A DNA stretch of 64,000 nucleotides from positions 1 through 64,000 of IMG/VR virus record IMGVR_UViG_3300037067_020797; one strand, given 5' to 3'. Source of the stretch: a virus. Below the pieces are notes generated by a model, which saw nothing but the letters and a program-made list of their open reading frames with translations, was not told the origin of the DNA and ran no database searches. This document shows, in pieces, positions 3,261 to 52,002 of the stretch. The stretch's first letter is position 1, and each line of letters opens with the position of its first letter. Both the position numbers and the translations under genes were made by a program.

Positions 3261-3655
3261 TGGTAGACACTTTATACACACTACAAATAATGTTAACAAG
3301 TATATTAGGTGGTATTGTAAGATATTTATCAGAGTTCTTAATCAAAACACAAGAACTTGATAAATTATCGTTAGGACTCATGGTTATTCATGCATTAGTT
3401 GGAGTATTCGCAGGATATATGTCGTTTTTAGTAGTAAGCGCGTTTACAACAGCAGAAATAGCTGGAATTCTTGCCGCTGGATTAGGTTCATTTGGGGGCT
3501 ACGGTACATTAATTTGGTTAGTAAAACAAATGAAAAAGAAACTTGTTCTTATGGATAAATCAGAATTTAGTGAATATCAAGAAAAACAAAAAAAGTCTTT
3601 TGATGATGGACAAAAAAGAGCTCTTGATAGACATAATAAGAGGATTAAGAAATGA
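3260..3655 (+). CDS. putative holin
   Basis: 131 aa with 2-3 predicted transmembrane helices followed by a highly charged Lys/Glu-rich C-terminal tail. Lies upstream of an amidase. Start overlaps the previous stop. Confidence 0.4.
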   Translation: MVDTLYTLQIMLTSILGGIVRYLSEFLIKTQELDKLSLGLMVIHALVGVFAGYMSFLVVSAFTTAEIAGILAAGLGSFGGYGTLIWLVKQMKKKLVLMDKSEFSEYQEKQKKSFDDGQKRALDRHNKRIKK

Positions 3656-36936: not shown

Positions 36937-38595
36937 TTAACCTCTTATGAAATCACTTATAATCTTTGGTGCAGAGGCATCAAAACCTGCAACATTCATC
37001 GTATATGGACTTTCTCCGGCAATAGATCCTTCAGTAGCAGATGTAGCTATGCTAATAAGTTTTGCTGGTATACCCATGCTACGCTGATAAGATTGTAATG
37101 CCTGTATAGGATGTGTTCTACCGGCCCATGTTTCATTATCAGTATAAACAAGAAATGCATCAACTGGTAATCTGTGCTGTTCTGCATAGATCATTGGAAG
37201 AGAACAATCGGTGCCACCATAATTCTGATTAGCAACACGTCGCATAACCTCACTAAGGCTTTGCTTTGCCGAGATTCCAAGGTCGATGAAATTAGTTGAG
37301 AACCCTTTTATAACCCAATCTTGTTCAGTACGCATAACTAACATTGACATGGCTGCAGTAACCTCACATGCTCTTAATTGTTCAGATCCAATAACACTAC
37401 ATGAACTCATGGATCCAGATATATCCAATCCAATTAAGATTCTTTTACCAGTGGGTTGTACAGTTCCAAATGATAAGTAAAATGCATCATCCAAAGCATC
37501 GACCAATTTTTGTATTGGTTGCCATGTAGAACTACCACGAAAACTATGACCTGATTTGTAGGTAGCATAGGCCAATAAAACTTGTATCGGATGTACTCGG
37601 CCTTTTTTAAGCAAATCCATATCATGTAACTTTTCAGCCACAAGTTTGGTATTTTCACTTCCGAGTTCGCCTAATACTCCAGCATTTGTTAATGTTGGTA
37701 ATTGACGAATAAGTGCAGTAATACCTAAATTCGGTATAATCGCGTCATAAAGATCTTTTGTTCGCTTTTCAGTCGGAACAAGTTCCATTGGTAAATTGTA
37801 TTTCTCTACCAAGCGAATAACTTCTTTTTGGTTATCCGTTGCCTTGATTTCCTCGTAGGCCCAGATTATGGGTAATTGTGCCTTGTAGGATTCGAGATCC
37901 TTTTGATATTGTTCAAGATTATAATTCTTGGAACCCTTATCTTTCTGTTGATGGAATTTTTCAACAGCCCATTTAAACGCTAATAACTGCGTATCGGTAT
38001 TTGGTGTTGGATGTGCCAATCGTAATATATCACGATGACTCCAACCATCACGAGATTGATACTTGGTTAATTGCAATGCTAACTGTTCGTCATTACGATC
38101 GATATACCATGCAGATATCGCATTACGTAACGATCTTGACCAACCACGCATCTTGTCAACATAATCAACAAAATGAAATAAATGAGTTCCGATTCGTGCA
38201 ACCTTTGCTAAGTTTTGTAGCGCGTATTTGCGTGTTTCAGCATTTTCAGCCGATGCGCACATAGCAAGTACAAATAAAGCTGGATCGTTCTTTGCAGCGC
38301 GACCAGCATCAGAAATTTCTATAACGATATCTACAACTCGTTTACCATCCGATTGTATGCACTTAGCAACATTCTTTGCATTATCGGCAGTCATTTGTTG
38401 TTTGCCAACATAATAGTTACCAGATTCTGATCCTAAGATCAAGAATCTTTCTAATCTTGCCCACTCATCAATCTCAAAAACATAACCACCTGCGGCATTC
38501 TTAATCATCTTTTTGCCGGGAATTGGTTGTGATTGTGGGGTAGGACCTTTTGGATTCATAGCTTGTGCAGCTTGAGATAATACTGTTTTCTTCAT
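36937..38595 (-). CDS. rsr: Ro60 (TROVE domain + vWA) orthologue, Rsr-like
   Basis: GGYVFEIDEWARLERFLILGSESGNYYVGKQQ aligns with Ro60 [31 protein letters not shown]. C-terminal vWA MIDAS ILIGLDISGSMS. Start placed at the ATG at 38595, preceded by AAGGAG. The track ORF extends to an upstream GTG at 38784 that lacks an RBS. Confidence 0.75.
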   Translation of the reverse strand: MKKTVLSQAAQAMNPKGPTPQSQPIPGKKMIKNAAGGYVFEIDEWARLERFLILGSESGNYYVGKQQMTADNAKNVAKCIQSDGKRVVDIVIEISDAGRAAKNDPALFVLAMCASAENAETRKYALQNLAKVARIGTHLFHFVDYVDKMRGWSRSLRNAISAWYIDRNDEQLALQLTKYQSRDGWSHRDILRLAHPTPNTDTQLLAFKWAVEKFHQQKDKGSKNYNLEQYQKDLESYKAQLPIIWAYEEIKATDNQKEVIRLVEKYNLPMELVPTEKRTKDLYDAIIPNLGITALIRQLPTLTNAGVLGELGSENTKLVAEKLHDMDLLKKGRVHPIQVLLAYATYKSGHSFRGSSTWQPIQKLVDALDDAFYLSFGTVQPTGKRILIGLDISGSMSSCSVIGSEQLRACEVTAAMSMLVMRTEQDWVIKGFSTNFIDLGISAKQSLSEVMRRVANQNYGGTDCSLPMIYAEQHRLPVDAFLVYTDNETWAGRTHPIQALQSYQRSMGIPAKLISIATSATEGSIAGESPYTMNVAGFDASAPKIISDFIRG

Positions 38596-38862
38596 TTCGA
38601 CTCCTTTTAGGATGTAAAAAATAAGATGAGCAATGTTTAAAAGTCGGATGCTTTTGACAAGCAGCGGATCTGGATTATAGCTCCAGCACCTTGGCATATT
38701 CTTTTTATCGCGCAAACAGCGGCATCCTGAACCCAGGTGCAGGTCGTTATTAATATGGGATTCATTCGGTTTCACAGAAACCACTCGACTTTATTAATTG
38801 TAGCCGAGCAGCTTCTCCGCCGAATGGAATATTAATAACTTATTCGATTGTATAATTGGTAA

Positions 38863-39226
38863 CCAACTTTAGTTCGGCTCATCACCATATGTAACAAGTG
38901 CCGTTTTATTTTTGGCGAAACGACTTACGCATACTACTGTAATTATTCCCAGTAGTTAAGAATGGGTGCTTTCGCACCTCCACCATGTGATCATGGATCA
39001 CAGTCTTCCTCGGTAAATGAATCTTCAGTTGTTCATCCGGTTAAGGGCCCCAACATGACGTTCTCATTTCACAACGAGGAATAATGACAATGGCAATCGA
39101 TTTTCGCCGGATGCAAGCATCCCGCTTAGCCATTGCATAAAACAAATTTCGGCAAAATATTGAGCTCGGAGACTGCCTTTTACATTTCCTAGGCTGGTTG
39201 TGGACTTTCACCACGTTTCTTTTTTA
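38863..39226 (+). ncRNA. candidate small RNA divergent from the Ro60 gene (Y-RNA-like partner hypothesis)
   Basis: Extended -10 element TGTATAAT at 38849-38856. No ORF follows. Hairpin-dense (ACTACTG/CAGTAGT, GGTGC-TTTC-GCACC, GTGATC-ATG-GATCAC, GGATGC/GCATCC). Ends with hairpin tgtggactttcaccacg plus TTTCTTTTTT at 39199-39226. Confidence 0.3.
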
Positions 39227-39271
39227 CGATTTATAGAATTGATAACCAAGCTACGTCCGGCCGAAAAACTT

Positions 39272-39463
39272 TTATTTCTCCTTTTTGGGAGGAGGCAGCA
39301 CAGTAAAATGTGTTTTTACTTCAATACCTGGTAACACTTCAGTAGTAAATACAGATGCATCCGTTAGAGGGTGCATTGTAACAAAATCTAAATTTTCTTC
39401 TGCACACTTAAGTGCTCGACTCTGTATTTGTTGAGTGTTAAGTATTTCATAATCTTTAGACAT
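39272..39463 (-). CDS. small hypothetical protein
   Basis: 63 aa ORF. Confidence 0.3.
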   Translation of the reverse strand: MSKDYEILNTQQIQSRALKCAEENLDFVTMHPLTDASVFTTEVLPGIEVKTHFTVLPPPKKEK

Positions 39464-39472
39464 GACGACTCC

Positions 39473-40117
39473 TTAAAATTCCGTTATAACCCCATTTACT
39501 CGTTGCCACTTTAATCTAAAGTAGCGCTTATCTTGTAATAGATTTGTCCATTGAATCGGTTGAAAAGTATCTGGATATTGATTACATATTTTAGTTCGTA
39601 TATCAACCCATTGTGTTGGATGTAATTCTGTATACTTATATATATGGTACCAACAATGTTCAGTACAAAAAGTGCCTTTTGTAAACCAATTATTTTCACT
39701 TAATACATCATGTTGAAGAAATTTTAAATGTAAGAATCTTCCGATTGGATTTAAAATTTTTATCCATAAGCCCGCCCAACCAAACCATAACCATGAAGCA
39801 TAACCATATACGTCACCGAGAAAAGTTCTTTCACCATAATCTAATGCGTGATAATTTTCTTCTTGTGTTCCGCCGATTATTTCATATACCCAGAAATTAT
39901 ATTTTGGATCTTTTATGAAATTATCCCATGTTTCGTGAACGACACCATTATATTCTGCTGAAAGTAATAAGGGTATATCTTGCTTTGATCCTGTGGGGTA
40001 AGTAACTACACAGCCATGTGTAGCGCCTTTACCATTTACCCAATGTTGTAAAGCGGCTGTAAACCCATGGCCATCCCCGACTATTAGATCTCCTGGTTTT
40101 AGATTTAAAGTGTTCAT
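39473..40117 (-). CDS. hypothetical protein with conserved Cys/His (possible papain-like hydrolase)
   Basis: 214 aa. HGCVV and CTEHCW motifs. Assignment is weak. Confidence 0.3.
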   Translation of the reverse strand: MNTLNLKPGDLIVGDGHGFTAALQHWVNGKGATHGCVVTYPTGSKQDIPLLLSAEYNGVVHETWDNFIKDPKYNFWVYEIIGGTQEENYHALDYGERTFLGDVYGYASWLWFGWAGLWIKILNPIGRFLHLKFLQHDVLSENNWFTKGTFCTEHCWYHIYKYTELHPTQWVDIRTKICNQYPDTFQPIQWTNLLQDKRYFRLKWQRVNGVITEF

Positions 40118-40315
40118 ATTGATGTTTTACTTTTTTACGGATCTTCCAACTGTAATGTTTTTTAAACTCGGTCCAATTTTCACCGGCATGATAGGAGCAA
40201 CAGGAACATTTACGAGTTTTCTTGCATATATACTGTTTATATGCTTTATTAAATACGGAGGAGTTAGTAGTGTGTTTTACTATTTCGTGATACATAAACT
40301 TTGTACTGCCCGACC

Positions 40316-40350
40316 GCAGTAAAAATAAAAGGGCAAATTATAGTCACCGA
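40316..40350 (-). promoter_or_regulatory. promoter-like repeat copy 1 (minus-strand TATAAT + conserved TTGCCCTTTTATTTTT leader)
   Basis: Minus-strand reading: cggtgacTATAATttgcccttttatttttactg. A second copy at 40676-40710 directly precedes the tRNA-Ala. Confidence 0.35.
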
Positions 40351-40512
40351 TATTTTTTCCAGTGATAACGATGACAGACGGCCCTAAAAATTAAAGCTGA
40401 ATAATAGTTTGAGACGGAGATTTGTCCGCCCACTGCTTACGCAGTGAGGTAGCCATCGGACGCTGCTACCTTTTCCATTGTGATAACCATCTCGATTCGA
40501 CTCAGCTTATAG

Positions 40513-40592
40513 TAGGGATTGATGGATTCGAACCACCGACTTCCTGTCCGTGAACAAGTCCTCTGGCCATTATTCTTCTGAGGTAAATCCCT
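40513..40592 (-). ncRNA. tRNA-like element (perfect acceptor-like stem and T-arm, oversized D- and anticodon-like loops)
   Basis: Minus strand: AGGGATT-TA-CCTC[16-nt loop]GAGG-ACTT[13-nt loop]AAGT-C-GGTGG-TTCGAAT-CCATC-AATCCCT-A. 7-bp acceptor-like stem and canonical TTCGAAT T-loop. The middle arms do not fit a canonical cloverleaf. Confidence 0.3.
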
Positions 40593-40599
40593 GTGTTAC

Positions 40600-40676
40600 T
40601 GGTGGACCCGAAGGGAGTCGAACCCTCCACAGATTGCTTGCAAGGCAGCCTCGCCCCCAACGGAACATGCGAGCCC
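40600..40676 (-). tRNA. tRNA-Ala (anticodon UGC), CCA encoded
   Basis: Minus strand: GGGCTCG...CTTGCAA anticodon loop (U33, TGC, A37)...GAGGG-TTCGACT-CCCTT-CGGGTCC-A-CCA. Acceptor stem with the G3:U70 wobble. T-arm canonical. D-arm irregular, with one C-A mismatch in the anticodon stem. Confidence 0.6.
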
Positions 40677-40710
40677 AAAAATAAAAAGGGCAAATAATTA
40701 TAGACCGCGT
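40676..40710 (-). promoter_or_regulatory. promoter-like repeat copy 2 directly upstream of tRNA-Ala
   Basis: Minus-strand reading: cgcggtcTATAATtatttgccctttttatttttg, followed by the tRNA 5' end. The TATAAT lies about 21 nt before the mature 5' end. Confidence 0.4.
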
Positions 40711-40912
40711 TTTTTTGTCTTTAAGTAAGATAAGATAACGATCTAAATCCGGCCCTACATTAATATATGATTTTTTTACTTTAAAGTCAAGTAAATTCTT
40801 GGCGCGTGTCCGGCAATCTTTACTTGTTAAGGGGATGTAAAGATGTTTGGAGGAGTCGGTCCTAGCCAATTCTGACACGCGTTAGTGCTGTAAACAGCAC
40901 ATAGTGAATATC

Positions 40913-41521
40913 TTATACCAGATTTTTTAGCACTATATCTGTAAATTCTTCCAGCCTCTTAACTCTGATAAGTCCATAATCCTCATCTTTTAAATTTCGA
41001 TTATATGGTCGATCCATTACAAATACCTTAGCATCAGAGTAAGTTGCAACTTCTGCACAGTTTTCTGGACGATCGTCTAAGAAGTATTTAAGATCCAACG
41101 CCTCAGCCAAGGGTGCCTTGTTAAACGATACTATAACCTGAGGACTGGTCCATCCTATCTTTTCCAGACTCTTGATAGTTTGTCTTATTAACGTATTTCC
41201 TTTAGTACTTACACGGGCAGTAATAAAGTATACAGCGATCTCAGGATTCTTATCAAAATGTTCACACATGTAATGTACTTGTCCTGGATTAAGTACCTCT
41301 ATTTCTTCCCAAAAATTATCTCGTTGAGTCATTACTTCCCATGCACGATCAAGCAATACCCTGTCTGCAGGATACCATTCTTCCCATCTCCAGGATTTAA
41401 ATCTGGGATCATCTTCATTTATAATAGGTAGATGATCACCGCCGAGCTCACGAATAATCTTAGAATATTCTTTAGCCCAATTAAATTGTACACCATCACA
41501 ATCTATTCCTACGTTTATCAT
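40913..41521 (-). CDS. HAD-superfamily 5'(3')-deoxyribonucleotidase-like protein (putative)
   Basis: N-terminal IDCDGV resembles HAD motif I (DxDx[TV]) of NT5C-type nucleotidases. Confidence 0.4.
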   Translation of the reverse strand: MINVGIDCDGVQFNWAKEYSKIIRELGGDHLPIINEDDPRFKSWRWEEWYPADRVLLDRAWEVMTQRDNFWEEIEVLNPGQVHYMCEHFDKNPEIAVYFITARVSTKGNTLIRQTIKSLEKIGWTSPQVIVSFNKAPLAEALDLKYFLDDRPENCAEVATYSDAKVFVMDRPYNRNLKDEDYGLIRVKRLEEFTDIVLKNLV

Positions 41522-43159: not shown

Positions 43160-44035
43160 TTAAAAGTTGCCGTCGGCTACCTGAAAAACAACGATATTAA
43201 GATCATTCCTATACATTCGTATCATCTGATCTCTATCATCCAAAGCAAATAAAACCGAAAATTTTCCAGCTATATTGGCATCATATAACTCACGTTTCAC
43301 TATACAATCCTTTCGAAAATCCTTAGTCGTACGCATATATAATGCATCGTAAGTTATGTTATATTTCTTAAGCCAACGTTCAGTATGAGGTCTAAATTGT
43401 TCTTCTCTTCCTGACATTAGTATTATACGAAGATCTTTGCCATTTTTCAAGTACATTGATTTCATAGCTTCTAATGTTTGAGCTACCGGAATAGATACTG
43501 CATCATCCTCACATTTAACCGTTTCAAATGGGCCTCGATTTGTAAATAATGCCAGTGTACCATCAAGATCACAAATAATGGCGAAAGGCAGAGTGGAATC
43601 TGTAGCTATTATAGGCTGTCGCTTTACACCTGGAAGAAATCTCACAAAGCTCCGAACAACCTTTTCACCAACGTGCCCTTCGCCAACTTTACGCTGTGAA
43701 TCCCGATATACACATTCCTCTACTGAGACATCTGTGAAATCTTGAACTATGTATTCAGCATCACAATCTTTCGCAAATTGAACTAAAGCATCAAATGTCT
43801 TTGGAATGAGATTAGTATCATCACTAATTACATCTATTCCGGACTGTAATAAACTTGTGATATTCTCATCCCTTAATTTACGTATAAAGTCTTCGCTTTT
43901 CCCTGGATAAGTTTTCCGTAAAGCATCACGATTTACAATACATGTACCAGGATGACTTGTAACATATTCTTTTGCCCACGTGGATTTACCTGAACCAGGT
44001 AATCCACGACAAATAATAAATTTAGATTTCGCCAT
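43160..44035 (-). CDS. pnk: polynucleotide 5'-kinase / 3'-phosphatase (T4 Pnkp-like)
   Basis: N-terminal P-loop kinase IICRGLPGSGKSTWAKEY. C-terminal HAD phosphatase motif ICDLDGTLALF (DxDGT). About 291 aa, like T4 Pnkp. Confidence 0.7.
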   Translation of the reverse strand: MAKSKFIICRGLPGSGKSTWAKEYVTSHPGTCIVNRDALRKTYPGKSEDFIRKLRDENITSLLQSGIDVISDDTNLIPKTFDALVQFAKDCDAEYIVQDFTDVSVEECVYRDSQRKVGEGHVGEKVVRSFVRFLPGVKRQPIIATDSTLPFAIICDLDGTLALFTNRGPFETVKCEDDAVSIPVAQTLEAMKSMYLKNGKDLRIILMSGREEQFRPHTERWLKKYNITYDALYMRTTKDFRKDCIVKRELYDANIAGKFSVLFALDDRDQMIRMYRNDLNIVVFQVADGNF

Positions 44036-44285
44036 ATTTTTTATCCTTATTTATTTTATAATACCATAAATATGCCCCGCTTAATGCTCCAGCTAAAATA
44101 GTTAACACAATTATAACCCAATTATATATTCCTGCAACCTTTAAAATAGCATTTAAAGTTGCCCATGGTAATGCGCCTAACATAATTGTGATATAAAACA
44201 AAAAAGTATTTTTTAGTTTTTGCCAAAACATACTATCATCTATATAATATATCTGACACGTATTTGACCTCTTCATCCCACGCAC
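44022..44285 (-). CDS. small membrane protein
   Basis: Two hydrophobic helices. Confidence 0.3.
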   Translation of the reverse strand: MRGMKRSNTCQIYYIDDSMFWQKLKNTFLFYITIMLGALPWATLNAILKVAGIYNWVIIVLTILAGALSGAYLWYYKINKDKKYGEI

Positions 44286-44922
44286 CGATTAAGTGCCACC
44301 AATTGCCTACAGGTGATTTTCCAAGAACGATTGGATCCTTCTTTCTTTCGACTTCTCTTGCTACGCTTTCTTTTACGATTAATATAATTTCAGCTTCATC
44401 AGAGTCAACCCATAACTTACCCCAGGCAGTCCTAAACTTACTTATTTCTTCAAGACCTTCGGTTGGTATTGTTGAAATGTAACTATTTATCGGAACTCGA
44501 CAAAGTTTATATTTAGCCAAAAGATCATTAATGGCAGCTTCTGTTACGACAGGCCAGGGAGAAAGAATTTCTGGACATTTGCGAAATCTTTTTCTTGCTT
44601 TAAGATAAAGTAGTGCTAATTTTTCCTCGTCAAAATCTAATTTATTCTTCTTTATTATCTTTATTCTGGCATTTACTACACTGATAGCTTTATCCAAATT
44701 TTCCAAATATAATAAAGGAATATTTGGCTGTATTAATTGTTTTACAACATCTACAGGGTTACTATCAATACGTTTATCCATTTGATCCTCGAATGCGGGG
44801 TTAACAGCAAAGGTAGAGCCAAAAGTACCCCATCTTGATCCCATAATAAAAGAATTCCTTCGCCTGGATAATTTTTTAATACCAGTAATAAATTTTTTAG
44901 TAAATCTGACTAAATTATTCAT
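44236..44922 (-). CDS. hypothetical protein
   Basis: 228 aa. Confidence 0.35.
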   Translation of the reverse strand: MNNLVRFTKKFITGIKKLSRRRNSFIMGSRWGTFGSTFAVNPAFEDQMDKRIDSNPVDVVKQLIQPNIPLLYLENLDKAISVVNARIKIIKKNKLDFDEEKLALLYLKARKRFRKCPEILSPWPVVTEAAINDLLAKYKLCRVPINSYISTIPTEGLEEISKFRTAWGKLWVDSDEAEIILIVKESVAREVERKKDPIVLGKSPVGNWWHLIGAWDEEVKYVSDILYR

Positions 44923-44931
44923 AGATTTCTC

Positions 44932-45171
44932 CTAACTTGTTTTAGATTTTCCTTTATTTACTATTGTTCCTAAGGGAAAAGGTTGCGTGTATTCTATAAA
45001 TTTATAACAATCGGGGCATATGCCTACAGAATAAGTTTCACCGCCGACGGTGATCATAATATCTTTGTCATGGGGGCATAATAATTGAGCTAACCAGTTA
45101 GGCCAGAAATTTATTAATATCCCATGTGATCGTCTCCACCAGTGAGTAGGACGAATATAAGTTTCAAACAT
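44932..45171 (-). CDS. small Cys-containing protein
   Basis: 79 aa. C..HD...CPDC pattern. Confidence 0.3.
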   Translation of the reverse strand: MFETYIRPTHWWRRSHGILINFWPNWLAQLLCPHDKDIMITVGGETYSVGICPDCYKFIEYTQPFPLGTIVNKGKSKTS

Positions 45172-45305
45172 TTTATCCTTTCAAATAATTGAGGGGTCTT
45201 GCGACCCCCCGATAGTATAATATTACACGTCATGTTACCAGCGTGCCGGCCTACAGTACAATCGAGAAAACAGCCGGTCGTGAAAGGATGTTTAGTTCGA
45301 TTGTT

Positions 45306-46091
45306 TCACAGTAAGTTATTTTTATGTAATATTTGTTTTTGAATTTGTACTAACTGATTATCCAGCCAGTCATAATCAAACTTTTCCGGCAATATGCTAT
45401 CTCTGTTAGCTTCATCCAGATCTTGTTCATAGCATTTAAATAGGTACTGAAATTCCTCTAAGGTTATTTGTCCTAATTTTACTTCCATACATATTTTTTG
45501 TTGTACTTCTGGAAGTCTTACAGGAAAATATCCTTCGAGCAATGCTTCTTTACCGGCATACATTAAACGTATACAATGTGATGCATTGCGAGGAGAGTAA
45601 TTTAAACGTTCGAGCTCTTCCTTTCGTCGGGCTCCTAAATCACGAGAAGATTCACCAAGTGCTTTGCGATATTCTGCGTAAGAGTACCCATGTATAACGT
45701 TATATATCTGTTTGGTAATAAAGGCTTCTTTATGTAAAAGAATATAATACTTAAATTGTTCGTTGCCGTCAAATAAGACGCAGTCTTCTGGGCTGAACAA
45801 CATTTCTAACATCTGTGTATTACCAGCTGCAGCTAAATGACAAAATTTACGAACATGCCAATAAACTTTATCTTCTGGTTCTGGAAATACTTTTTGTTCA
45901 AAGATTTTCATACCAAAATAATACCTTAAATCATCTGGCATCACTACACCACGTATGTCAAGATCCGATTCGGGGGTAGCTAATCCATAGGCATGAGAGC
46001 CAATTTTGCATTCATATAATTTAATTAAATTCATATTAATAAAACCACGTATGTGTCCATTGACCAATAATCTTAATATGTGATAATACAA
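45306..46091 (-). CDS. minimal nucleotidyltransferase (Pol-beta superfamily)
   Basis: GSHAYGLATPESDLDIRGV fits the GS-x9-DxD nucleotidyltransferase signature. Sits in the RNA-repair neighbourhood. Confidence 0.5.
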   Translation of the reverse strand: MYYHILRLLVNGHIRGFINMNLIKLYECKIGSHAYGLATPESDLDIRGVVMPDDLRYYFGMKIFEQKVFPEPEDKVYWHVRKFCHLAAAGNTQMLEMLFSPEDCVLFDGNEQFKYYILLHKEAFITKQIYNVIHGYSYAEYRKALGESSRDLGARRKEELERLNYSPRNASHCIRLMYAGKEALLEGYFPVRLPEVQQKICMEVKLGQITLEEFQYLFKCYEQDLDEANRDSILPEKFDYDWLDNQLVQIQKQILHKNNLL

Positions 46092-46195
46092 TTAATATAA
46101 AAACATACCAAGATACTACTTCAGTAATACACATTATAAGTCCAACTACGATAAAAATAATTGAAAACAAATTTATTTCGGTTATTCTCCAACAT

Positions 46196-46624
46196 TTATT
46201 CATCTAATACTCCTGCCTGAATTAGTGTCCTTCTAAGATTAGTAGAGACATATTCATGTGCATTTTCTTTAGTTACATATTTGAAAGCATCTGCTTCTGG
46301 AAATGGTTTTCGATTAGGAAGCTTTACCATTTCCGTGCATTTAAGTGTATCGATATTTGGAAGTTTATCTAACGTAATTTTAAAGAGATAGAGATCCTTT
46401 GCAGGTAGATACGTAAACTGCCCAAGATCTTGAATTACAGCTATATCTGTAGGTATAGTAAAACCAGTTTCCTCTTTAACCTCGCGAAGGCATGCATCTA
46501 AAAAATCTTCCGCTACTTCAACTCCACCTTTGGGTATATCCCAAATCTTTTGTCCTGTCGCATGACAGACTAAAAAACTGGTGCCATCTGTTAAAATGGC
46601 ACCCGCTGATATCTTACGAGGCAT
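46196..46624 (-). CDS. Nudix hydrolase
   Basis: Nudix box GGVEVAEDFLDACLREVKEETGF. Confidence 0.65.
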   Translation of the reverse strand: MPRKISAGAILTDGTSFLVCHATGQKIWDIPKGGVEVAEDFLDACLREVKEETGFTIPTDIAVIQDLGQFTYLPAKDLYLFKITLDKLPNIDTLKCTEMVKLPNRKPFPEADAFKYVTKENAHEYVSTNLRRTLIQAGVLDE

Positions 46625-46696
46625 TTAGTTTTCCTTTCTCTGCTAAACGCCGTAATCGTCTTTTTTGTTTCCTTAATTTGCGAGCCTGAATAGCAC

Positions 46697-47449
46697 GTGT
46701 ATGTATTTTATTTGCCTCAGCTCTTAGAATTTGACCTTTTAAGAAGTTCATGGATTCATGTCCTTATGCATTTAGGTGTTTTTATGATTTGCATTTTTGC
46801 AGATATTTTTGTATATTATAAAATGACTAAAATAATAGAACATAAAATTAAAGAAGCTTATAATAACGGACATTCCTATAAAAGCATAATGCATGAGTTT
46901 AACGTTAGTTATGGCACGATTTGTGGTATTATTGGAAAATTTAAACTTGCCGGTCGAAAACTTAAAATAAAACTAATAGGAAAAAATAAAGCAAAATGTA
47001 GCAGATGTCATAAAATTCGACCATTAAGTAGATTTAGTGTAGGGCATTCTACTAAAAAGTATTATTATAGCTTTTGTAATACCTGCCATCAGGGGAAAAG
47101 AACAATTTATTATAATACTAATATAGAAAGTCGTTTAAAATTAATATATACTCACCTTAAGAGCAAAGCTAAAAAACTAAATCTTAAATTCTTTATTTCA
47201 TTTGAGGAATTTAAAAATATTTATAATAAACAAAATAATAAATGTTATTATACTGGATTTACAATGACAACGAAATTAGGAAATGGAGCTTCAAAATTTG
47301 CAATTTCAGTTGATCAAATTATACCCGGCAAAGGTTATACAAAAGATAATATTGTATTTTGTACGCGTTTTGCAAATTCCATAAAAAGTAATTTATCCAA
47401 ACAAGAATTAAGGAAATGGATAAAAGCTATTTATCAACATATTAATTAA
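46697..47449 (+). CDS. zinc-finger / HNH-like endonuclease domain protein (possible homing endonuclease)
   Basis: Two CxxC/CxxH pairs (CSRCHK, CNTCHQ). C-terminal VDQIIPGKGYTKDNIVFCTRFANSIKS resembles a degenerate HNH core. Confidence 0.35.
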   Translation: MYVFYLPQLLEFDLLRSSWIHVLMHLGVFMICIFADIFVYYKMTKIIEHKIKEAYNNGHSYKSIMHEFNVSYGTICGIIGKFKLAGRKLKIKLIGKNKAKCSRCHKIRPLSRFSVGHSTKKYYYSFCNTCHQGKRTIYYNTNIESRLKLIYTHLKSKAKKLNLKFFISFEEFKNIYNKQNNKCYYTGFTMTTKLGNGASKFAISVDQIIPGKGYTKDNIVFCTRFANSIKSNLSKQELRKWIKAIYQHIN

Positions 47450-48525
47450 GCAGGAAGAACCTGGTGCAGTAGTTTTTTATAAGCATCGTTATCTAATTCT
47501 CGATTATCGAGCATCGTAAATACAAATCCCGATCGACTCGTTTTACCGTAAGCAGATATGATCTTAGCTGCTGCTTCCTTTCTTGGAAGTGTTCGCACTT
47601 CGTCAGCAAAAAATTTCATATGGTCAAGGATCTTATTAACTTCTTTATTCGCATCGGCTAATTTACTTATATCTCCACGTGCAATAACTGCACATTCGTA
47701 ATCGTAGGTATTGGCTACATAATCGTAAAATTCTTGATAAGACGGCCGACCACATAACACGTACGCTTCAAGTAAATTATTGATACTTAAGTCACTTTTG
47801 AATGCATGTATCGCCAGATATTTTTGGCCTTTAACTTTTTTGATGTGTTGATCTTTATCATAGTATAAACAAACGCCCTCCTTACCATCAAATGCTCTAA
47901 CTTGGGATAATAAATCTTCAACGTCCTCAAACCTAAGCGTCGGTGGGCGCGGAATGCCCAGGTTATCTGCCATGACATCAAGTGTATTTTGAGAGAGCAG
48001 ACTATAATCATCATGAACAATGGCACCGACAAGGAAAAGTTCCGGATCCGGTCCCAGGTCGAGAACGATTCGATTTTTGGGGCTGTACCATTCGAAGATT
48101 CTTGTGAAGTTGTCATTAGGTATTTCGAAAGCTCTCCGATATTTCTTTTTAAGCAGTTCAATCTCGTCTGCATTATCAAATATACTAACATCAAATGTAC
48201 CTCGGGTACGTATGATTAATTTATCCTTAAATGGTGAAACTATAAGAGTACTTCCATCTATTTTTTCAACTGCCGTTGTTCCTATTAAACTATCAGGAGC
48301 CGGTATAATATTATCCTTTTCATCCCAGTTAAAAAACTTAGGAAAACTTGGGCTTACAAGATAACCATCTTCAGTCCATATTGATGATCTGAAGATTAAA
48401 TTTTCTTTAGTCCAAGTGCATCCCATGTGCTGCGGATGCACAAGAACTAAAGGTTCTCCATACTGGGTAGAGGTCTTCCGCAAGAACTCTTCAGAAAGCG
48501 ATTCTAATGGGTAAGATAGTTTCAT
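47446..48525 (-). CDS. ATP-dependent RNA ligase, T4 Rnl1-like (putative)
   Basis: Nucleotidyltransferase motif I VEKIDGSTLIV (KxDG). Size 359 aa. Same region as Pnkp. Confidence 0.5.
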   Translation of the reverse strand: MKLSYPLESLSEEFLRKTSTQYGEPLVLVHPQHMGCTWTKENLIFRSSIWTEDGYLVSPSFPKFFNWDEKDNIIPAPDSLIGTTAVEKIDGSTLIVSPFKDKLIIRTRGTFDVSIFDNADEIELLKKKYRRAFEIPNDNFTRIFEWYSPKNRIVLDLGPDPELFLVGAIVHDDYSLLSQNTLDVMADNLGIPRPPTLRFEDVEDLLSQVRAFDGKEGVCLYYDKDQHIKKVKGQKYLAIHAFKSDLSINNLLEAYVLCGRPSYQEFYDYVANTYDYECAVIARGDISKLADANKEVNKILDHMKFFADEVRTLPRKEAAAKIISAYGKTSRSGFVFTMLDNRELDNDAYKKLLHQVLPA

Positions 48526-50644: not shown

Positions 50645-51346
50645 ATGCCACATTTTAAAAATCTTCTAAATAAACAATTTGGACGACTTACAGTTATTGA
50701 AATAACCGATAAACGTACTCCTACTGGCAAAGTAATATGGAAATGTAAATGTTCTTGTAATAAAATTCATGAAGTTAATTCTAATAGTTTATTGTGTGGA
50801 TCCACTAAATCTTGTGGATGCCTACAAAAAGAATGGGCCGTTATTAATGGAAAAACTCGTTTACATGATGTAACTGGTCAAACTATTAACGGTATTAAAA
50901 TTATTCGCATGTCTGACAAACGATCAGGTAGAAATGCATATTGTTTTGCTTTATGCCCAGTTTGTGGTAATGAATGGGAAGTACAAGCAAGTCTTTTAAG
51001 AACGAGGCATTCCACACAATGCAAAACTTGTAGTTTCCGAGCCATGTCATCAAAAACAGCTGAAAGGCTATTCAACAAATTAGAAGACAAATTGGATCTT
51101 AAAATTATTCGCGAATATCGAATTAACAATCGATTTTTTGATGGCTACATACCAGAATTAAAATTATTAATAGAGTCTGATGGTAGTTACTGGCATTCTA
51201 AACCCGAAAGTGTAGAAATCGATGCCGAAAAAGATAAGTTAGCCAAAGAAGCGGGTCTACAATTAATTCGAGTAACTAATAATAATGAAAAAGATCATCC
51301 CGCTGCAATAGAAAAAATTTACAATGCAATTGTTATATCATCTTGA
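50645..51346 (+). CDS. zinc-ribbon repeat protein with a C-terminal DUF559/Vsr-like PD-(D/E)xK endonuclease domain
   Basis: Three Cys clusters at the N-terminus. C-terminal YIPELKLLIESDGSYWHS...LIRVTN resembles the DUF559 endonuclease core. Confidence 0.4.
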   Translation: MPHFKNLLNKQFGRLTVIEITDKRTPTGKVIWKCKCSCNKIHEVNSNSLLCGSTKSCGCLQKEWAVINGKTRLHDVTGQTINGIKIIRMSDKRSGRNAYCFALCPVCGNEWEVQASLLRTRHSTQCKTCSFRAMSSKTAERLFNKLEDKLDLKIIREYRINNRFFDGYIPELKLLIESDGSYWHSKPESVEIDAEKDKLAKEAGLQLIRVTNNNEKDHPAAIEKIYNAIVISS

Positions 51347-52002
51347 AAATAATTGTAATTACGATTTATGAAAAGTTTAACCGGCACTTCTTTACCCTTA
51401 AGCAGCAATTGTGCAAACTCTTCTTGACGTTCCTTTGGCATATTAAATAAAAAGCGAAGTCCATCAGTTGCTATGCCTATGTTTTTATATTCAGATTTTG
51501 GATACGTTAACGTGGTCACAGTTATCTTATCTTTATAGACGCTAAACGCTACATGTGGGATATAATTATAACCATAGAACTCTACAAATCTTATGCCCAC
51601 ACCAAGTTCTTTATAAGTAATAGTATTATCTTGATGTACTTCGATAATGAACCCATCACCTACATAATCTACCTTAAAATGGTCGTCTCTTTCCTTAACT
51701 ATTAATGTGGTAAATAAAAGATAATCACGAATAATTTCTATACCCATCCTATCTAATTCTTCGGGATAACGGTCTAAATCAAATGAATTAAAAACATCCT
51801 GGCTTACATCAGGTATATCAATTGGCATTCCAGATTGTACGCGGGTTCGAAACATAAGTTCAGCCAATTGTGCTCCAACTTCCGCATGTGGACTTGATCC
51901 ACATCCGTCAGCTACAAACTTATAATGTTCATCGATATAGCCAGCATCTTGTTTATTAAGGCCCGAATCTAAGTGTGATTTTCCGATTTTGCATATCAGC
52001 AT
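51319..52002 (-). CDS. PP2C-like protein phosphatase (tentative)
   Basis: FVADGCGSSPHAE resembles PP2C motif 1 (DGHGG). Later VGDGFII resembles the DG motif. 227 aa. Lies near the kinase. Confidence 0.3.
   Translation of the reverse strand: MLICKIGKSHLDSGLNKQDAGYIDEHYKFVADGCGSSPHAEVGAQLAELMFRTRVQSGMPIDIPDVSQDVFNSFDLDRYPEELDRMGIEIIRDYLLFTTLIVKERDDHFKVDYVGDGFIIEVHQDNTITYKELGVGIRFVEFYGYNYIPHVAFSVYKDKITVTTLTYPKSEYKNIGIATDGLRFLFNMPKERQEEFAQLLLKGKEVPVKLFINRNYNYFQDDITIAL

What the first reader, a model, noticed from the sequence alone, without database searches (positions are those of the whole stretch)
40316..40710. tRNA-Ala with a G3:U70 identity pair, flanked by a duplicated promoter-like 30-nt motif, next to a non-canonical tRNA-like element
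On the minus strand, 40600..40676 folds as a tRNA with acceptor GGGCTCG/CGGGTCC (G3:U70), anticodon loop CTTGCAA (UGC), a canonical T-arm and an encoded CCA. Its D-arm is irregular. Eight nucleotides away, 40513..40592 has a perfect 7-bp acceptor-like stem (AGGGATT/AATCCCT) and a canonical TTCGAAT T-arm, but 16-nt and 13-nt loops where the D and anticodon arms should be. That is a tRNA mimic rather than a decoder. Y RNAs of bacteria contain tRNA-like modules, and the Ro60 gene is 1.9 kb away. Both elements sit between two copies of cgNggNNcTATAATt(a)tttgccctttttatttttg (40316-40350 and 40676-40710).
Basis: seen in the sequence. Interest (0 to 1): 0.55.

Follow-up and report, generated by a model that had tools for sequence, protein, structure and literature searches.

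The report
Phage Y-RNA and tRNA-like gene cluster
The flagged stretch is part of a noncoding-RNA cluster upstream of a jumbo-phage Ro60 gene, where Y-RNA-like stem-loops sit head-to-tail with a divergent tRNA-Ala and an anticodon-less tRNA mimic, and the "promoter-like repeat" is the 3' half of two of those stem-loops.

Summary
The sequence features are real, but one interpretation is wrong. Element A (40676..40600, minus strand) is a divergent tRNA-Ala(UGC) with G3:U70 and an encoded CCA. ARAGORN calls it only at a relaxed threshold, and it falls below Rfam's tRNA cut-off. Relatives carry a tRNA-Ala gene in the same cluster. Element B (40592..40513) is a tRNA-shaped RNA whose anticodon arm is a 6-bp stem capped by a tetraloop. 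Its closest relative keeps all 22 base pairs, with 7 double compensatory changes, so it is a maintained mimic and not a decaying gene. The duplicated "promoter-like" 30-mer is not a promoter. It is the 3' half of two paralogous stem-loops, M1 and M2. These have a closing stem, a bulged C followed by G, a second helix with a U·G pair in the M1/M2- and M3-class alignments, and then UUAUC. A covariance model built only from relatives hits M1, M2, M3 and M4, and also hits a YrlA-type RNA (sub-threshold Rfam YrlA match) in an actinophage. A fifth module abuts the Ro60 start codon. The likely promoter lies upstream, at 40790-40762. I read this as a Y-RNA/tRNA polycistron inside an RNA-repair island. 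The tRNA-shaped elements probably set the RNA ends. It is a new variant of a known kind.

The parts
40762..40790 (-). Sigma-70-type promoter TTGACT-17 nt-TATATT. The predicted start site falls on the first bases of M1.
   Evidence: This is the only strong consensus match in the cluster. The same TTGACT-17-TATAYT lies 5-11 nt before the first module in L001 and L002, and before the first tRNA-Ala-like element in L012. Activity is inferred.
40687..40756 (-). Y-RNA-like module M1. It has closing stem AGGGC/GCCCU, a bulged C plus GGAUU, helix UAGAUCG/CGGUCUA, and UUAUC. A U-rich tail runs to 40677.
   Evidence: R1 model 58.7 bits, E 2.5e-10. RNAalifold on 9 modules gave 12 pairs, 8 with compensatory changes. 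MFE fold z = -2.5.
40600..40676 (-). Element A: a divergent tRNA-Ala(UGC) with G3:U70, C8, a weak D arm, a C·A mismatch in the anticodon stem, and an encoded CCA.
   Evidence: ARAGORN -ps calls tRNA-Ala(tgc). It is not called at default. The tmRNA tRNA-like-domain hit is 21 bits. Relatives have tRNA-Ala(UGC) in the same cluster.
40513..40592 (-). Element B: a tRNA-shaped RNA without an anticodon loop. It has a 7-bp acceptor, a 4-bp D stem with a 16-nt loop, a 6-bp stem with a CACG tetraloop, a 5-nt variable loop, a canonical T arm, discriminator A, and then CUA.
   Evidence: All 22 pairs are kept in the window and in L002. Seven pairs changed on both sides; slid controls gave 0-1. The element was found only in this lineage. 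The tRNA tertiary-contact nucleotides were read directly from the sequence.
40394..40508 (-). Y-RNA-like module M3. It has closing stem AAGCUGAGU/AUUCAGCUU, a bulged C plus GAAUC, helix GAGAUGG/CCGUCUC, UUAUC, and a three-hairpin apical domain.
   Evidence: MFE z = -4.0. RNAalifold on 7 orthologues gave 16 pairs, 4 of them compensatory. R1 scored 35.2 bits, E 1.2e-6, with filters off.
40330..40385 (-). Y-RNA-like module M2, a paralogue of M1. A U-rich tail runs to about 40321.
   Evidence: R1 50.4 bits, E 1.5e-8. Included in the RNAalifold set. MFE z = -2.2.
40305..40320 (-). Small hairpin ACUGC-GGUCGG-GCAGU between M2 and the first downstream ORF.
   Evidence: The fold of 40296-40330 gave z = -3.7. 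Its role is unknown.
39147..39266 (-). Y-RNA-like module M4. It has closing stem UUUCGGC/GCCGAAA, helix AGCUUGG/CCGAGCU, and UUAUC.
   Evidence: R1 32.7 bits, E 1e-4 over the whole window. Orthologues occur in L001, L004 and L005.
38626..38882 (-). Y-RNA-like module M5, the UUACC variant with a long apical domain. It ends about 20 nt before the Ro60 ribosome-binding site.
   Evidence: RNAalifold on 6 orthologues gave S1 of 6 pairs and H2 of 8 pairs, with covariation. Sequence read. R1 does not detect it.
36937..38595 (-). Ro60 orthologue of 552 aa, with TROVE and vWA domains.
   Evidence: Pfam TROVE 4.6e-41 and vWA_Ro60 9.2e-54. The 552-aa form P0001 is 100% identical.

Best explanation
The interval is the 5' part of a noncoding-RNA cluster that belongs to a phage Ro60 gene. 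A sigma-70-type promoter at 40790-40762 probably starts a precursor that reads M1, tRNA-Ala-like A, tRNA-like B, M3 and M2. Two further modules, M4 and M5, lie before the Ro60 start codon.

M1 to M5 are Y-RNA-like stem-loops. Each has a closing stem, a bulged C followed by G (the GNCG/CGAA region), a second helix with a conserved U·G pair, the YUAY-type sequence UUAUC, a variable apical domain, an A/U-rich 3' strand and a U-rich tail. I infer that they are the ligands of the phage Ro60.

A and B are tRNA-shaped. I infer that host RNase P cuts at their 5' ends and that tRNA 3'-end processing cuts at their 3' ends. This would release the neighbouring Y RNAs with defined ends. The 3' end of M1 would be the U-rich leader of A. 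The 5' end of M3 would lie 2-5 nt after the discriminator of B.

A keeps the AlaRS identity pair, a UGC anticodon loop and CCA, so it can probably still be charged. B has lost its anticodon loop but keeps the acceptor/T-arm/elbow shape. That shape is what RNase P, RNase Z and the CCA-adding enzyme recognise.

The duplicated 'promoter-like' motif is the 3' half of M1 and M2.

Shown here: the structures, their covariation, their recurrence, strand bias and packing, and the cross-hit to YrlA. Inferred: transcription as one unit, cleavage by RNase P and RNase Z, and binding to Ro60.
For: - Relatives. Seven related uncultivated phage loci share the synteny PNKP, small genes, ncRNA gap, Ro60, DUF5906 primase, ClpB.
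- Module structure. RNAalifold recovers both helices of the module in three independent sets: 12 pairs with 8 compensatory, 16 pairs with 4 compensatory, and 11 pairs with 10 compensatory in 20 non-window modules.
- Covariance model. Model R1 was built from those 20 modules. It hits M1, M2 and M4 in the window and M3 with filters off. It gives 34 hits at E<=0.01 in the loci, all on the Ro60 strand.
- Rule-based scan. My own scan found 43 modules on the Ro60 strand, 4 on the opposite strand, and 1.5 expected from shuffles.
- Link to YrlA. R1 also hits the RNA upstream of the Ro-like gene of Microbacterium phage FuzzBuster, at 20 bits and E 0.008. The apical part of that RNA matches Rfam YrlA at 33 bits, below its 69-bit gathering score. 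That RNA has the same GGGUCG..N..GGUUAUC signature.
- Published features. Chen et al. 2014 (PMC4201824) describe GNCGAA plus YUAY motifs, location within 4 kb on the Ro60 strand, a Yrn2-tRNA(Asp)-Yrn1 polycistron in Deinococcus, and RNase P cleavage with CCA addition of M. smegmatis YrlA.
- Packing. Modules and tRNAs or tRNA-like elements are separated by 0-14 nt. In L008, modules sit between tRNAs with 3-5 nt gaps. Every M3-class module examined follows a tRNA-shaped element: tRNA-Ala in L001, L004, L005 and L012, tRNA-Met in L006, and B in the window and L002.
- Element B. All 22 pairs are kept, with 7 double compensatory changes.
- Promoter. The promoter consensus is conserved upstream.
- Context. 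The surroundings form an RNA-repair island with an Rnl1-type ligase, NUDIX, RlaP and PNKP.
Against: - There are no expression data, so RNA ends and co-transcription are untested.
- No Rfam Y-RNA family matches any window module.
- The published GNCGAAN0-1G motif is met in full by none of the five modules. GNCG is present in all five and GNCGAA in two.
- None of the modules carries the embedded tRNA-like domain that defines YrlA.
- The covariation for B rests on two distinct sequences only.
- R1's hit to the actinophage YrlA is weak (20 bits).
- The U-rich tails could instead make some modules terminators.
- If punctuation were B's only role, the strict maintenance of its 6-bp anticodon-position stem and 16-nt D loop would not be explained.
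Confidence: 0.7

Rival explanations
1. B is not mere punctuation. It is the functional tRNA-like domain of the Ro60 particle. It would either stay joined to M3, forming a bipartite equivalent of YrlA with the tRNA domain appended 5' instead of embedded, or act in trans after release. Either way it would recruit a tRNA-binding partner such as PNPase, the CCA-adding enzyme, or the island's RlaP, PNKP or ligase. This overlaps with the best explanation rather than excluding it.
For: - None of the five window modules has an embedded tRNA-like domain, and Chen et al. found one such Y RNA in every species they characterised.
- B keeps the tRNA tertiary-contact nucleotides (U8, A14, G15:C48, G18G19, the T-loop) and a fully compensated anticodon-position stem. 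That is more than cleavage signals need.
- Only 4 nt separate B from M3.
- L002's copy of B encodes A-CCA.
Against: - In L001, L004, L005, L006 and L012 the same position is filled by tRNA genes or a tRNA-Ala-like element, which suggests any tRNA shape will do.
- B exists in one lineage only.
- There are no binding data.
Confidence: 0.25
2. The two motif copies are sigma-70 promoters with perfect TATAAT -10 boxes. One would drive A and B and the other the downstream genes.
For: A perfect TATAAT is present in both copies, 20 nt before A and 41 nt before the ATG of the 88-aa ORF.
Against: - There is no acceptable -35 box at a 16-18 nt spacing, and the scan does not call either site.
- The orthologous M1 in L002 has TATACC.
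- The corresponding strand in other modules is A/U-rich but differs in sequence.
- The bases 5' of TATAAT covary with an upstream strand.
- A structure model built from other phages explains the whole unit at E 1e-8 to 1e-10.
- A conserved full promoter lies upstream.
Confidence: 0.07
3. B is a decaying pseudo-tRNA, the remnant of a gene that lost its anticodon loop, and has no function.
For: L006 has a tRNA-Met that passes Rfam's tRNA cut-off at the equivalent position. ARAGORN can only force B into implausible tRNA models at 70-80% thresholds.
Against: Fifteen stem substitutions separate the window's copy from L002's copy. None breaks a pair, and 7 pairs changed on both sides. The non-canonical architecture (16-nt D loop, 6-bp stem plus tetraloop) is itself conserved.
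Confidence: 0.06
4. A is simply a phage decoding tRNA-Ala that supplements host translation of GCN codons. Its position beside Ro60 and the Y modules reflects only the habit of phages to cluster tRNA genes.
For: Ro60 genes of more distant phages sit inside arrays of 25-27 tRNAs (L003, L008). A keeps a 7-nt loop with U33 and UGC, G3:U70 and CCA.
Against: - A tRNA-Ala(UGC) is the only tRNA that default ARAGORN finds in four of the related loci, and the window has none at default.
- A and its type-1 relatives fall below the Rfam tRNA cut-off, with degenerate D arms.
- The tight packing with Y modules is conserved.
Confidence: 0.3

Closest known systems
YrlA/YrlB Y RNAs of bacteria and actinophages (Chen et al. 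2014, PMC4201824; Rfam RF02553)
   Same: - They are encoded just upstream of Ro60 on the same strand, with several per locus.
- The 5' and 3' ends pair around an internal loop that carries a GNCG(AA) motif, followed by a YUAY sequence.
- My model of the window-type modules hits the FuzzBuster YrlA across its Ro-binding stem.
- Hairpin-only Y RNAs (YrlB type) are known.
   Different: - No window module has the embedded, permuted tRNA-like domain of YrlA, and none reaches any Rfam score.
- The full GNCGAAN0-1G motif is not met.
- There are five modules here and up to nine in relatives, against two or three in described loci.
- The tRNA-like element is free-standing, in normal tRNA topology, with its anticodon stem capped by a tetraloop.
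Deinococcus radiodurans Yrn2-tRNA(Asp)-Yrn1 polycistronic precursor (Chen et al. 2014)
   Same: Y RNAs and a tRNA are made from one precursor upstream of rsr.
   Different: In Deinococcus this was shown by Northern blot; here it is inferred. In the phages the packing is tighter and systematic (0-14 nt), with tRNA-Ala preferred and a tRNA mimic used in one lineage.
M. smegmatis YrlA, processed by RNase P and given CCA (Chen et al. 2014)
   Same: A tRNA-shaped Y-RNA domain with a 7-bp acceptor stem is treated as a tRNA by processing enzymes.
   Different: There the acceptor is closed by a loop inside the Y RNA and cleavage splits the RNA into two bound halves. Here the acceptor has free ends and the Ro-binding stem is a separate neighbouring hairpin.
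Thermus phage phiLo Yrl1/Yrl2 (PMC12135203)
   Same: These are phage-encoded hairpin RNAs upstream of a phage Ro60. They were identified by a stem-bulge-stem shape and a CGAA motif, and were shown to bind that phage's Ro60.
   Different: The phage lineage and sequences differ. No tRNA or tRNA-like elements are described next to them in the passages I read.
tRNA-like domain of tmRNA
   Same: A's best Rfam match: a G3:U70 acceptor, a T arm, ACCA and a degenerate D region.
   Different: Only 34 nt lie between the two halves. They form a tRNA-Ala anticodon arm, with no mRNA-like region and no pseudoknots. ARAGORN finds no tmRNA.
tRNA-like punctuation elements such as mascRNA of MALAT1 and the tRNA-miRNA units of murine gammaherpesvirus 68 (from my own knowledge, not tested here)
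   Same: These are non-decoding tRNA-shaped structures whose recognition by RNase P or RNase Z sets the ends of neighbouring noncoding RNAs.
   Different: They are eukaryotic or viral nuclear systems with no sequence relation to this cluster.

Membership tests
canonical tRNA (element A) | Scores above the curated tRNA thresholds (Rfam RF00005 at 29 bits or more; ARAGORN default) | tested here: not met
   No Rfam hit at gathering. The best clan hit is tmRNA at 21 bits. ARAGORN at default gives 0 genes. It is called only at -ps.
canonical tRNA (element A) | 7-bp acceptor, 7-nt anticodon loop with U33, T loop UUCRA, and a 3' CCA or discriminator | tested here: met
   Read from the sequence and drawn by ARAGORN -ps. 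However, position 8 is C rather than U, the D stem has 3 pairs, and there is one C·A mismatch in the anticodon stem.
tRNA-Ala identity (element A) | G3:U70 pair and an Ala anticodon | tested here: met
   G3:U70 and UGC are present. Relatives carry tRNA-Ala(UGC) in the same cluster. Charging by AlaRS was not testable.
tmRNA (element A) | mRNA-like tag reading frame and pseudoknots between the two halves of the tRNA-like domain | tested here: not met
   Only 34 nt lie between the halves (alignment). ARAGORN reports no tmRNA.
tRNA (element B) | Anticodon arm with a 5-bp stem and a 7-nt loop | tested here: not met
   B has a 6-bp stem with a 4-nt loop in both the window and L002. No scanner calls it above 80% thresholds.
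tRNA-like structure (element B) | Acceptor stem, T arm and D/T elbow nucleotides maintained by selection | tested here: met
   22 of 22 pairs are kept, with 7 double compensatory changes. U8, A14, G15, GG, A21, C48 and UUCGAAU are identical in both copies. Only two distinct sequences are available.
bacterial/phage Y RNA | Encoded within about 4 kb of a Ro60 orthologue on the same strand | tested here: met
   M1-M5 lie 30 nt to 2.2 kb upstream of Ro60 on its strand. All 34 hits in relatives are on the Ro60 strand.
bacterial/phage Y RNA | Stem formed by the 5' and 3' ends, flanking an internal loop, followed by a second stem | tested here: met
   RNAalifold shows covariation in both helices.
bacterial/phage Y RNA | GNCGAAN0-1G motif near the 5' end (Chen 2014), or the CGAA motif (phiLo paper) | tested here: inconclusive
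   GNCG is present in 5 of 5 window modules. GNCGAA is present in M3 and M5 only. The trailing N0-1G is present in none.
bacterial/phage Y RNA | YUAY after the Ro-binding strand | tested here: met
   UUAUC occurs in M1-M4 and UUACC in M5. FuzzBuster's Y RNAs show the same UUAUC/UUACC alternation.
YrlA (Rfam RF02553) | Embedded tRNA-like domain (T arm, acceptor-like stem-loop, D arm) and a match to the curated model | tested here: not met
   There is no YrlA hit at E<=10 anywhere in 38500-41200. The same search does give a partial hit (33 bits, below the 69-bit gathering score) in FuzzBuster.
bacterial/phage Y RNA | Bound by Ro60 | not testable with these tools
   This needs a gel shift or an immunoprecipitation.
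sigma-70 promoter (the repeated motif) | -35 and -10 hexamers at 16-18 nt spacing, kept in orthologues | tested here: not met
   The scan does not call either site. By my reading, the best -35 candidate is CTTAAA (3 of 6) for M1 and TCACTG (1 of 6) for M2. The -10 is TATACC in L002.

The most novel reading that the evidence does not exclude
The phage has taken apart the YrlA design. The Ro-binding stem-loops (M1-M5) and the tRNA-shaped domain (B, and perhaps the D-arm-poor, AlaRS-chargeable element A) would be separate RNAs that work together. B or A would serve as a trans-acting tRNA-shaped cofactor or decoy. It could link the phage Ro60 particle to tRNA-handling enzymes of the adjacent repair island (Rnl1-type ligase, PNKP, RlaP nucleotidyltransferase), or it could soak up a host tRNA-targeting defence nuclease. 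That would make this a new kind of anti-defence RNA rather than a processing signal.
Probability: 0.15. Interest if true: 0.75.

Novelty: new variant of a known kind. Interest (0 to 1): 0.5.

Why it matters
Y RNAs and Ro60 are conserved from bacteria to humans, yet their bacterial and phage roles remain poorly understood. This lineage of uncultivated jumbo phages carries five to nine Y-RNA-like modules per genome, and current Rfam models miss them. The modules have a clear shared architecture: a bulged C and a YUAY sequence, with a U·G pair conserved in the M1/M2- and M3-class alignments. These features make directly testable Ro60-binding determinants. The systematic head-to-tail packing with tRNA-Ala genes, and in one lineage with an anticodon-less tRNA mimic, suggests a general rule for how phage Y RNAs get their ends. 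The cluster sits inside an RNA-ligase/PNKP/RlaP repair island, which links Ro60 particles to the phage-host conflict over tRNA damage. For annotation, the result warns that TATAAT-containing repeats here are RNA stems. It also shows that the 615-aa Ro60 gene call runs over a noncoding RNA.

Tried and rejected
- **Standard scanners.** ARAGORN at default and Rfam at gathering scores found nothing in the window. Permissive Rfam searches gave only a tmRNA tRNA-like-domain hit for A plus chance matches.
- **Isolated phages.** Megablast of the region against isolated phages found no match. tblastn of the primase against phages also found no match, so there is no cultured relative.
- **Motif count.** A window-wide search for the 26-nt motif with 3 mismatches found only one copy, because the two copies differ by indels. 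A looser regex found exactly two.
- **More copies of B.** A pattern from B's D arm in viral contigs returned only L002's own contig. In metagenome contigs it returned the same phage again (L013) plus one chance match (L014). B therefore has two distinct sequences only.
- **Cellular genomes.** The Ro60 scan of representative genomes found no relative, so this is not a known prophage.
- **Missing or short relatives.** Two close Ro60 relatives (P0009, P0012) had no DNA on file. L011 has too little upstream sequence.
- **tmRNA reading of A.** Rejected because there is no tag region.
- **Intron-containing tRNA reading of B.** This comes only from ARAGORN at a 70% threshold. I rejected it as forced and as inconsistent with L002's copy.
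- **R1 and M5.** R1 does not find M5, because the apical insert is about 215 nt. M5 rests on orthologue alignment instead.
- **First module-finding script.** It picked some wrong closing stems. I replaced it with a two-helix scan.
Full report
**What is in the sequence.**
On the minus strand, 40676..40600 reads GGGCUCG-CAUG-UUCC..GGCG-A-GGCUGC-CUUGCAA-GCAAUC-..-GAGGG-UUCGACU-CCCUU-CGGGUCC-A-CCA. This gives a G3:U70 acceptor, a UGC anticodon loop, a normal T arm and an encoded CCA. The D region is poor: C8, four linker bases and three D-stem pairs. The anticodon stem has a C·A mismatch. ARAGORN at default finds no tRNA in the whole window, and Rfam finds nothing at gathering scores. At a 95% threshold ARAGORN calls it tRNA-Ala(tgc), 77 nt. 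Its best Rfam match is the tRNA-like domain of tmRNA, at 21 bits.

The middle is not two open loops, however. It is a 4-bp D stem with a 16-nt loop, followed by a 6-bp stem with a tetraloop.

**Genomic context.**
- The window is 34% G+C.
- It carries a Ro60 orthologue with TROVE and vWA domains, and a T4-type PNKP.
- It also carries an Rnl1-type RNA ligase, a NUDIX protein, an RlaP nucleotidyltransferase and a ClpB-like ATPase.
- Together these form a phage RNA-repair island of the kind reviewed for jumbo phages (PMC7824862).
- The exact Ro60 protein is 552 aa and sits on a 215-kb contig.
- Its start codon is at 38595. The 615-aa ORF is an over-extension.
- There is no cultured relative and no relative in representative cellular genomes.

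**Relatives.**
Ro60 proteins of 51-79% identity led to loci L001, L002, L004-L009 and L012. They share the synteny PNKP, small genes, a 1.5-3 kb gene-poor gap, Ro60, primase, ClpB.
- ARAGORN finds a tRNA-Ala(UGC) in that gap in every locus with enough upstream sequence. In four loci it is the only tRNA.
- Element A aligns best with a divergent subgroup that shares its odd D region: L007 2415-2486 and L012 1361-1433.
- This subgroup also falls below the Rfam tRNA threshold. L012's copy needs relaxed ARAGORN settings.
- A is therefore a conserved, non-canonical tRNA-Ala type and not a recent wreck.

**Element B.**
B occurs only in the window and in the closest relative, L002. L010 and L013 are the same phage as L002. 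The two copies align without gaps at 85% mean column identity (56 of 80 columns identical). All 22 proposed pairs form in both. Seven pairs changed on both sides and one changed on one side. Sliding the partners by 1-3 columns gives 0-1 such pairs. The unpaired tRNA landmarks are identical in both copies: U8, A14, G15, GG in the D loop, A21, C48 and UUCGAAU. L002's copy ends in A-CCA and the window's ends in A-CUA. This pattern rules out neutral decay.

**The repeated motif.**
The two copies extend well beyond 30 nt. Each is the 3' half of a unit that begins AGGGC-C-G.
- M1 (40756-40687) is AGGGC|CGGAUU|UAGAUCG|UUAUC|26 nt|CGGUCUA|UAAUUAUUU|GCCCU, plus a U-rich tail.
- M2 (40385-40330) is AGGGC|CGUCU|GUCAUCG|UUAUC|14 nt|CGGUGAC|UAUAAUUU|GCCCU, plus a U-rich tail.
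That strand differs between M1 and M2 by three double compensatory changes.
- MFE folding alone recovers both helices, with z = -2.5 and -2.2.
- The orthologous M1 in L002 has TATACC in place of TATAAT.
- Neither copy has a usable -35 box, and the promoter scan does not call either one.

**A recurrent module.**
The same architecture recurs many times. It consists of closing stem S1, a bulged C then G, helix H2, UUAUC, a variable apical domain of 14-170 nt, an A/U-rich 3' strand, the S1 3' strand and a U-rich tail. In the M1/M2- and M3-class alignments the pair three positions from the top of H2 is a U·G wobble in every sequence; across all 20 modules that pair is U·G in 8 and G-C in 7.
- A rule-based scan found 43 instances with S1+H2 >= 11 pairs on the Ro60 strand of the window and loci. 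It found 4 on the other strand, and 1.5 were expected from shuffles.
- RNAalifold on MAFFT alignments recovered both helices with compensatory changes in four module classes. MAFFT does not use structure.
- Covariance model R1 was built only from 20 modules of other phages. Over the whole window it hits M1 at 58.7 bits, M2 at 50.4 bits and M4 (39266-39147) at 32.7 bits.
- With filters off, R1 also hits M3 (40508-40394) at 35.2 bits.
- R1 gives 34 hits in the loci, all on the Ro60 strand.
- A fifth module, M5 (38882-38626), has UUACC and ends about 20 nt before the Ro60 ribosome-binding site. It is supported by orthologue alignment.

**Link to known Y RNAs.**
Chen et al. 2014 define bacterial and phage Y RNAs by four features: location within 4 kb of Ro60 on the same strand, a GNCGAAN0-1G motif near the 5' end, a following YUAY, and, for YrlA, an embedded tRNA-like domain. 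The phiLo study uses a stem-bulge-stem shape with CGAA.
- The window modules have GNCG in all five cases, GNCGAA in two, and UUAUC or UUACC as the YUAY.
- Rfam's YrlA model does not hit them.
- R1 does hit the RNA upstream of the Ro-like gene of Microbacterium phage FuzzBuster over its whole length, at 20 bits and E 0.008.
- Rfam's YrlA model partly matches the apical tRNA-like domain of that same RNA, at 33 bits against a 69-bit gathering score.
- That RNA reads GGGUCGAUCGCCUUCGGUUAUC, and two further hairpins there read GGGUCG..CGGUUACC.
- The window modules therefore share the Ro-binding stem of the YrlA/YrlB family. They lack its embedded tRNA domain.

**Packing with tRNAs.**
Modules and tRNAs or tRNA-like elements follow one another with gaps of 0-14 nt.
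- In the window the gaps are M1-10-A-7-B-4-M3-8-M2.
- Every M3-class module examined is preceded by a tRNA-shaped element: tRNA-Ala in L001, L004, L005 and L012, tRNA-Met in L006, and B in the window and L002. Two to five bases lie between the discriminator and the closing stem.
- In the more distant L008, modules sit between tRNAs with 3-5 nt gaps.
- Deinococcus makes Yrn2, tRNA-Asp and Yrn1 from one precursor. M. smegmatis YrlA is cut by RNase P and receives CCA.
- The simplest reading is that tRNA-processing enzymes set the ends of these Y RNAs, and that B is retained for its shape.
- I cannot exclude that B is the tRNA-like working part of the particle. The strict upkeep of its anticodon-position stem hints at more than a cleavage signal.

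**Transcription.**
The only good sigma-70 match in the cluster is TTGACT-17-TATATT at 40790-40762. It places the start site on the first bases of M1. The same consensus sits before the first module in L001 and L002, and before the tRNA-Ala-like element in L012. Downstream of M2 lies a small Cys-rich protein gene that is conserved with L002 (57% identity over 56 residues). The cluster is therefore interrupted by coding genes before M4 and M5. Co-transcription and all cleavage steps are inferred.

**Verdict.**
The system is a new variant of a known kind. It is a multi-copy, Rfam-invisible Y-RNA family in uncultivated jumbo phages, interleaved with tRNA-Ala genes and, in this lineage, with a free-standing anticodon-less tRNA mimic.

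Noticed in passing
window 40849-40865 (minus strand); L001 4405, L004 2701, L005 3473, L006 1990, L007 2165: The motif CTAGG-N(1-5)-CGACTCCYCC occurs exactly once per locus, 60-110 nt upstream of the first Y-like module (L002 has a one-base variant). In L004-L007 no TTGACT-type promoter was found between it and the modules. It may be a phage-specific promoter, an operator, or an RNA with an anti-Shine-Dalgarno-like CUCCUCC.
   Followed up: partly
window about 38900-39140 (minus strand), core GGTGGAGGTGC at 38984; L001 5730, L002 5481, L004 4571, L005 4399, L007 4432, L009 556: Another conserved noncoding element lies between modules M4 and M5. It occurs once per locus and contains a GGUGC-GAAA-GCACC hairpin and CUACUGGGAAUA..CAGUAGUAUGCG. 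It has no Rfam match. It may be a further structured RNA of the cluster.
   Followed up: partly
window 39147-39266 (M4), apical hairpin GUGG-UGAAAGU-CCAC near 39205: The apical hairpin of M4-class modules has a 7-nt loop with U at position 1 and A at position 5, like a T-loop. It is conserved in L001, L004 and L005. Rfam gives a weak, sub-threshold cobalamin-riboswitch hit here (14 bits, E 0.7), probably because of this motif.
   Followed up: no
window about 40448-40470 (inside M3); L002 about 3590-3610; L006 about 2775-2795: The M3-class apical hairpin has a conserved loop, ACGUCCGAUG, on a covarying stem. GUCCGAUGG resembles the vertebrate Y-RNA Ro-binding sequence GGUCCGA quoted by Chen et al. 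2014. It could be a second protein-binding site.
   Followed up: no
window 38596-38784 (minus strand): The longest ORF for Ro60 (615 aa, GTG at 38784) and the JGI gene call P0121 (615 aa) run across module M5. The 552-aa form starts at ATG 38595 behind a good ribosome-binding site and is the one shared with relatives.
   Followed up: yes
window 43160-48525 (minus strand): An RNA-repair gene set lies upstream of the cluster: PNKP 43160-44035, RlaP 45306-46091, NUDIX 46196-46624 and an Rnl1-type RNA ligase 47446-48525. A PP2C phosphatase sits at 51319-52002.
   Followed up: partly
L001 5370-5440; L004 3923 and 4197; L005 4009; L006 3895; L007 3734: Other relatives carry different non-canonical T-arm elements. 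L001 has a 70-nt mini tRNA-like element, with a 7-bp acceptor, one central hairpin, a T arm and no D arm, directly 5' of an M4-class module. Most of these elements end in G-CUA.
   Followed up: partly
L008 and L003 (more distant Ro60 phages): The Ro60 genes of these phages sit inside arrays of 25-27 tRNA genes. In L008, Y-like modules are wedged between tRNAs: Gln-Y-Thr and Glu-Y-Gly. R1 finds no module in L003.
   Followed up: partly
all loci: It is unexplained why tRNA-Ala(UGC) in particular is the tRNA kept in the Y-RNA cluster of every relative. In four of them it is the only tRNA found.
   Followed up: no
window 40029-40295 (minus strand): A small Cys-rich protein of 88 aa (C-x4-C-x-CC) lies immediately after M2. 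It is conserved in L002 (57% identity over 56 residues) and has no Pfam match.
   Followed up: partly
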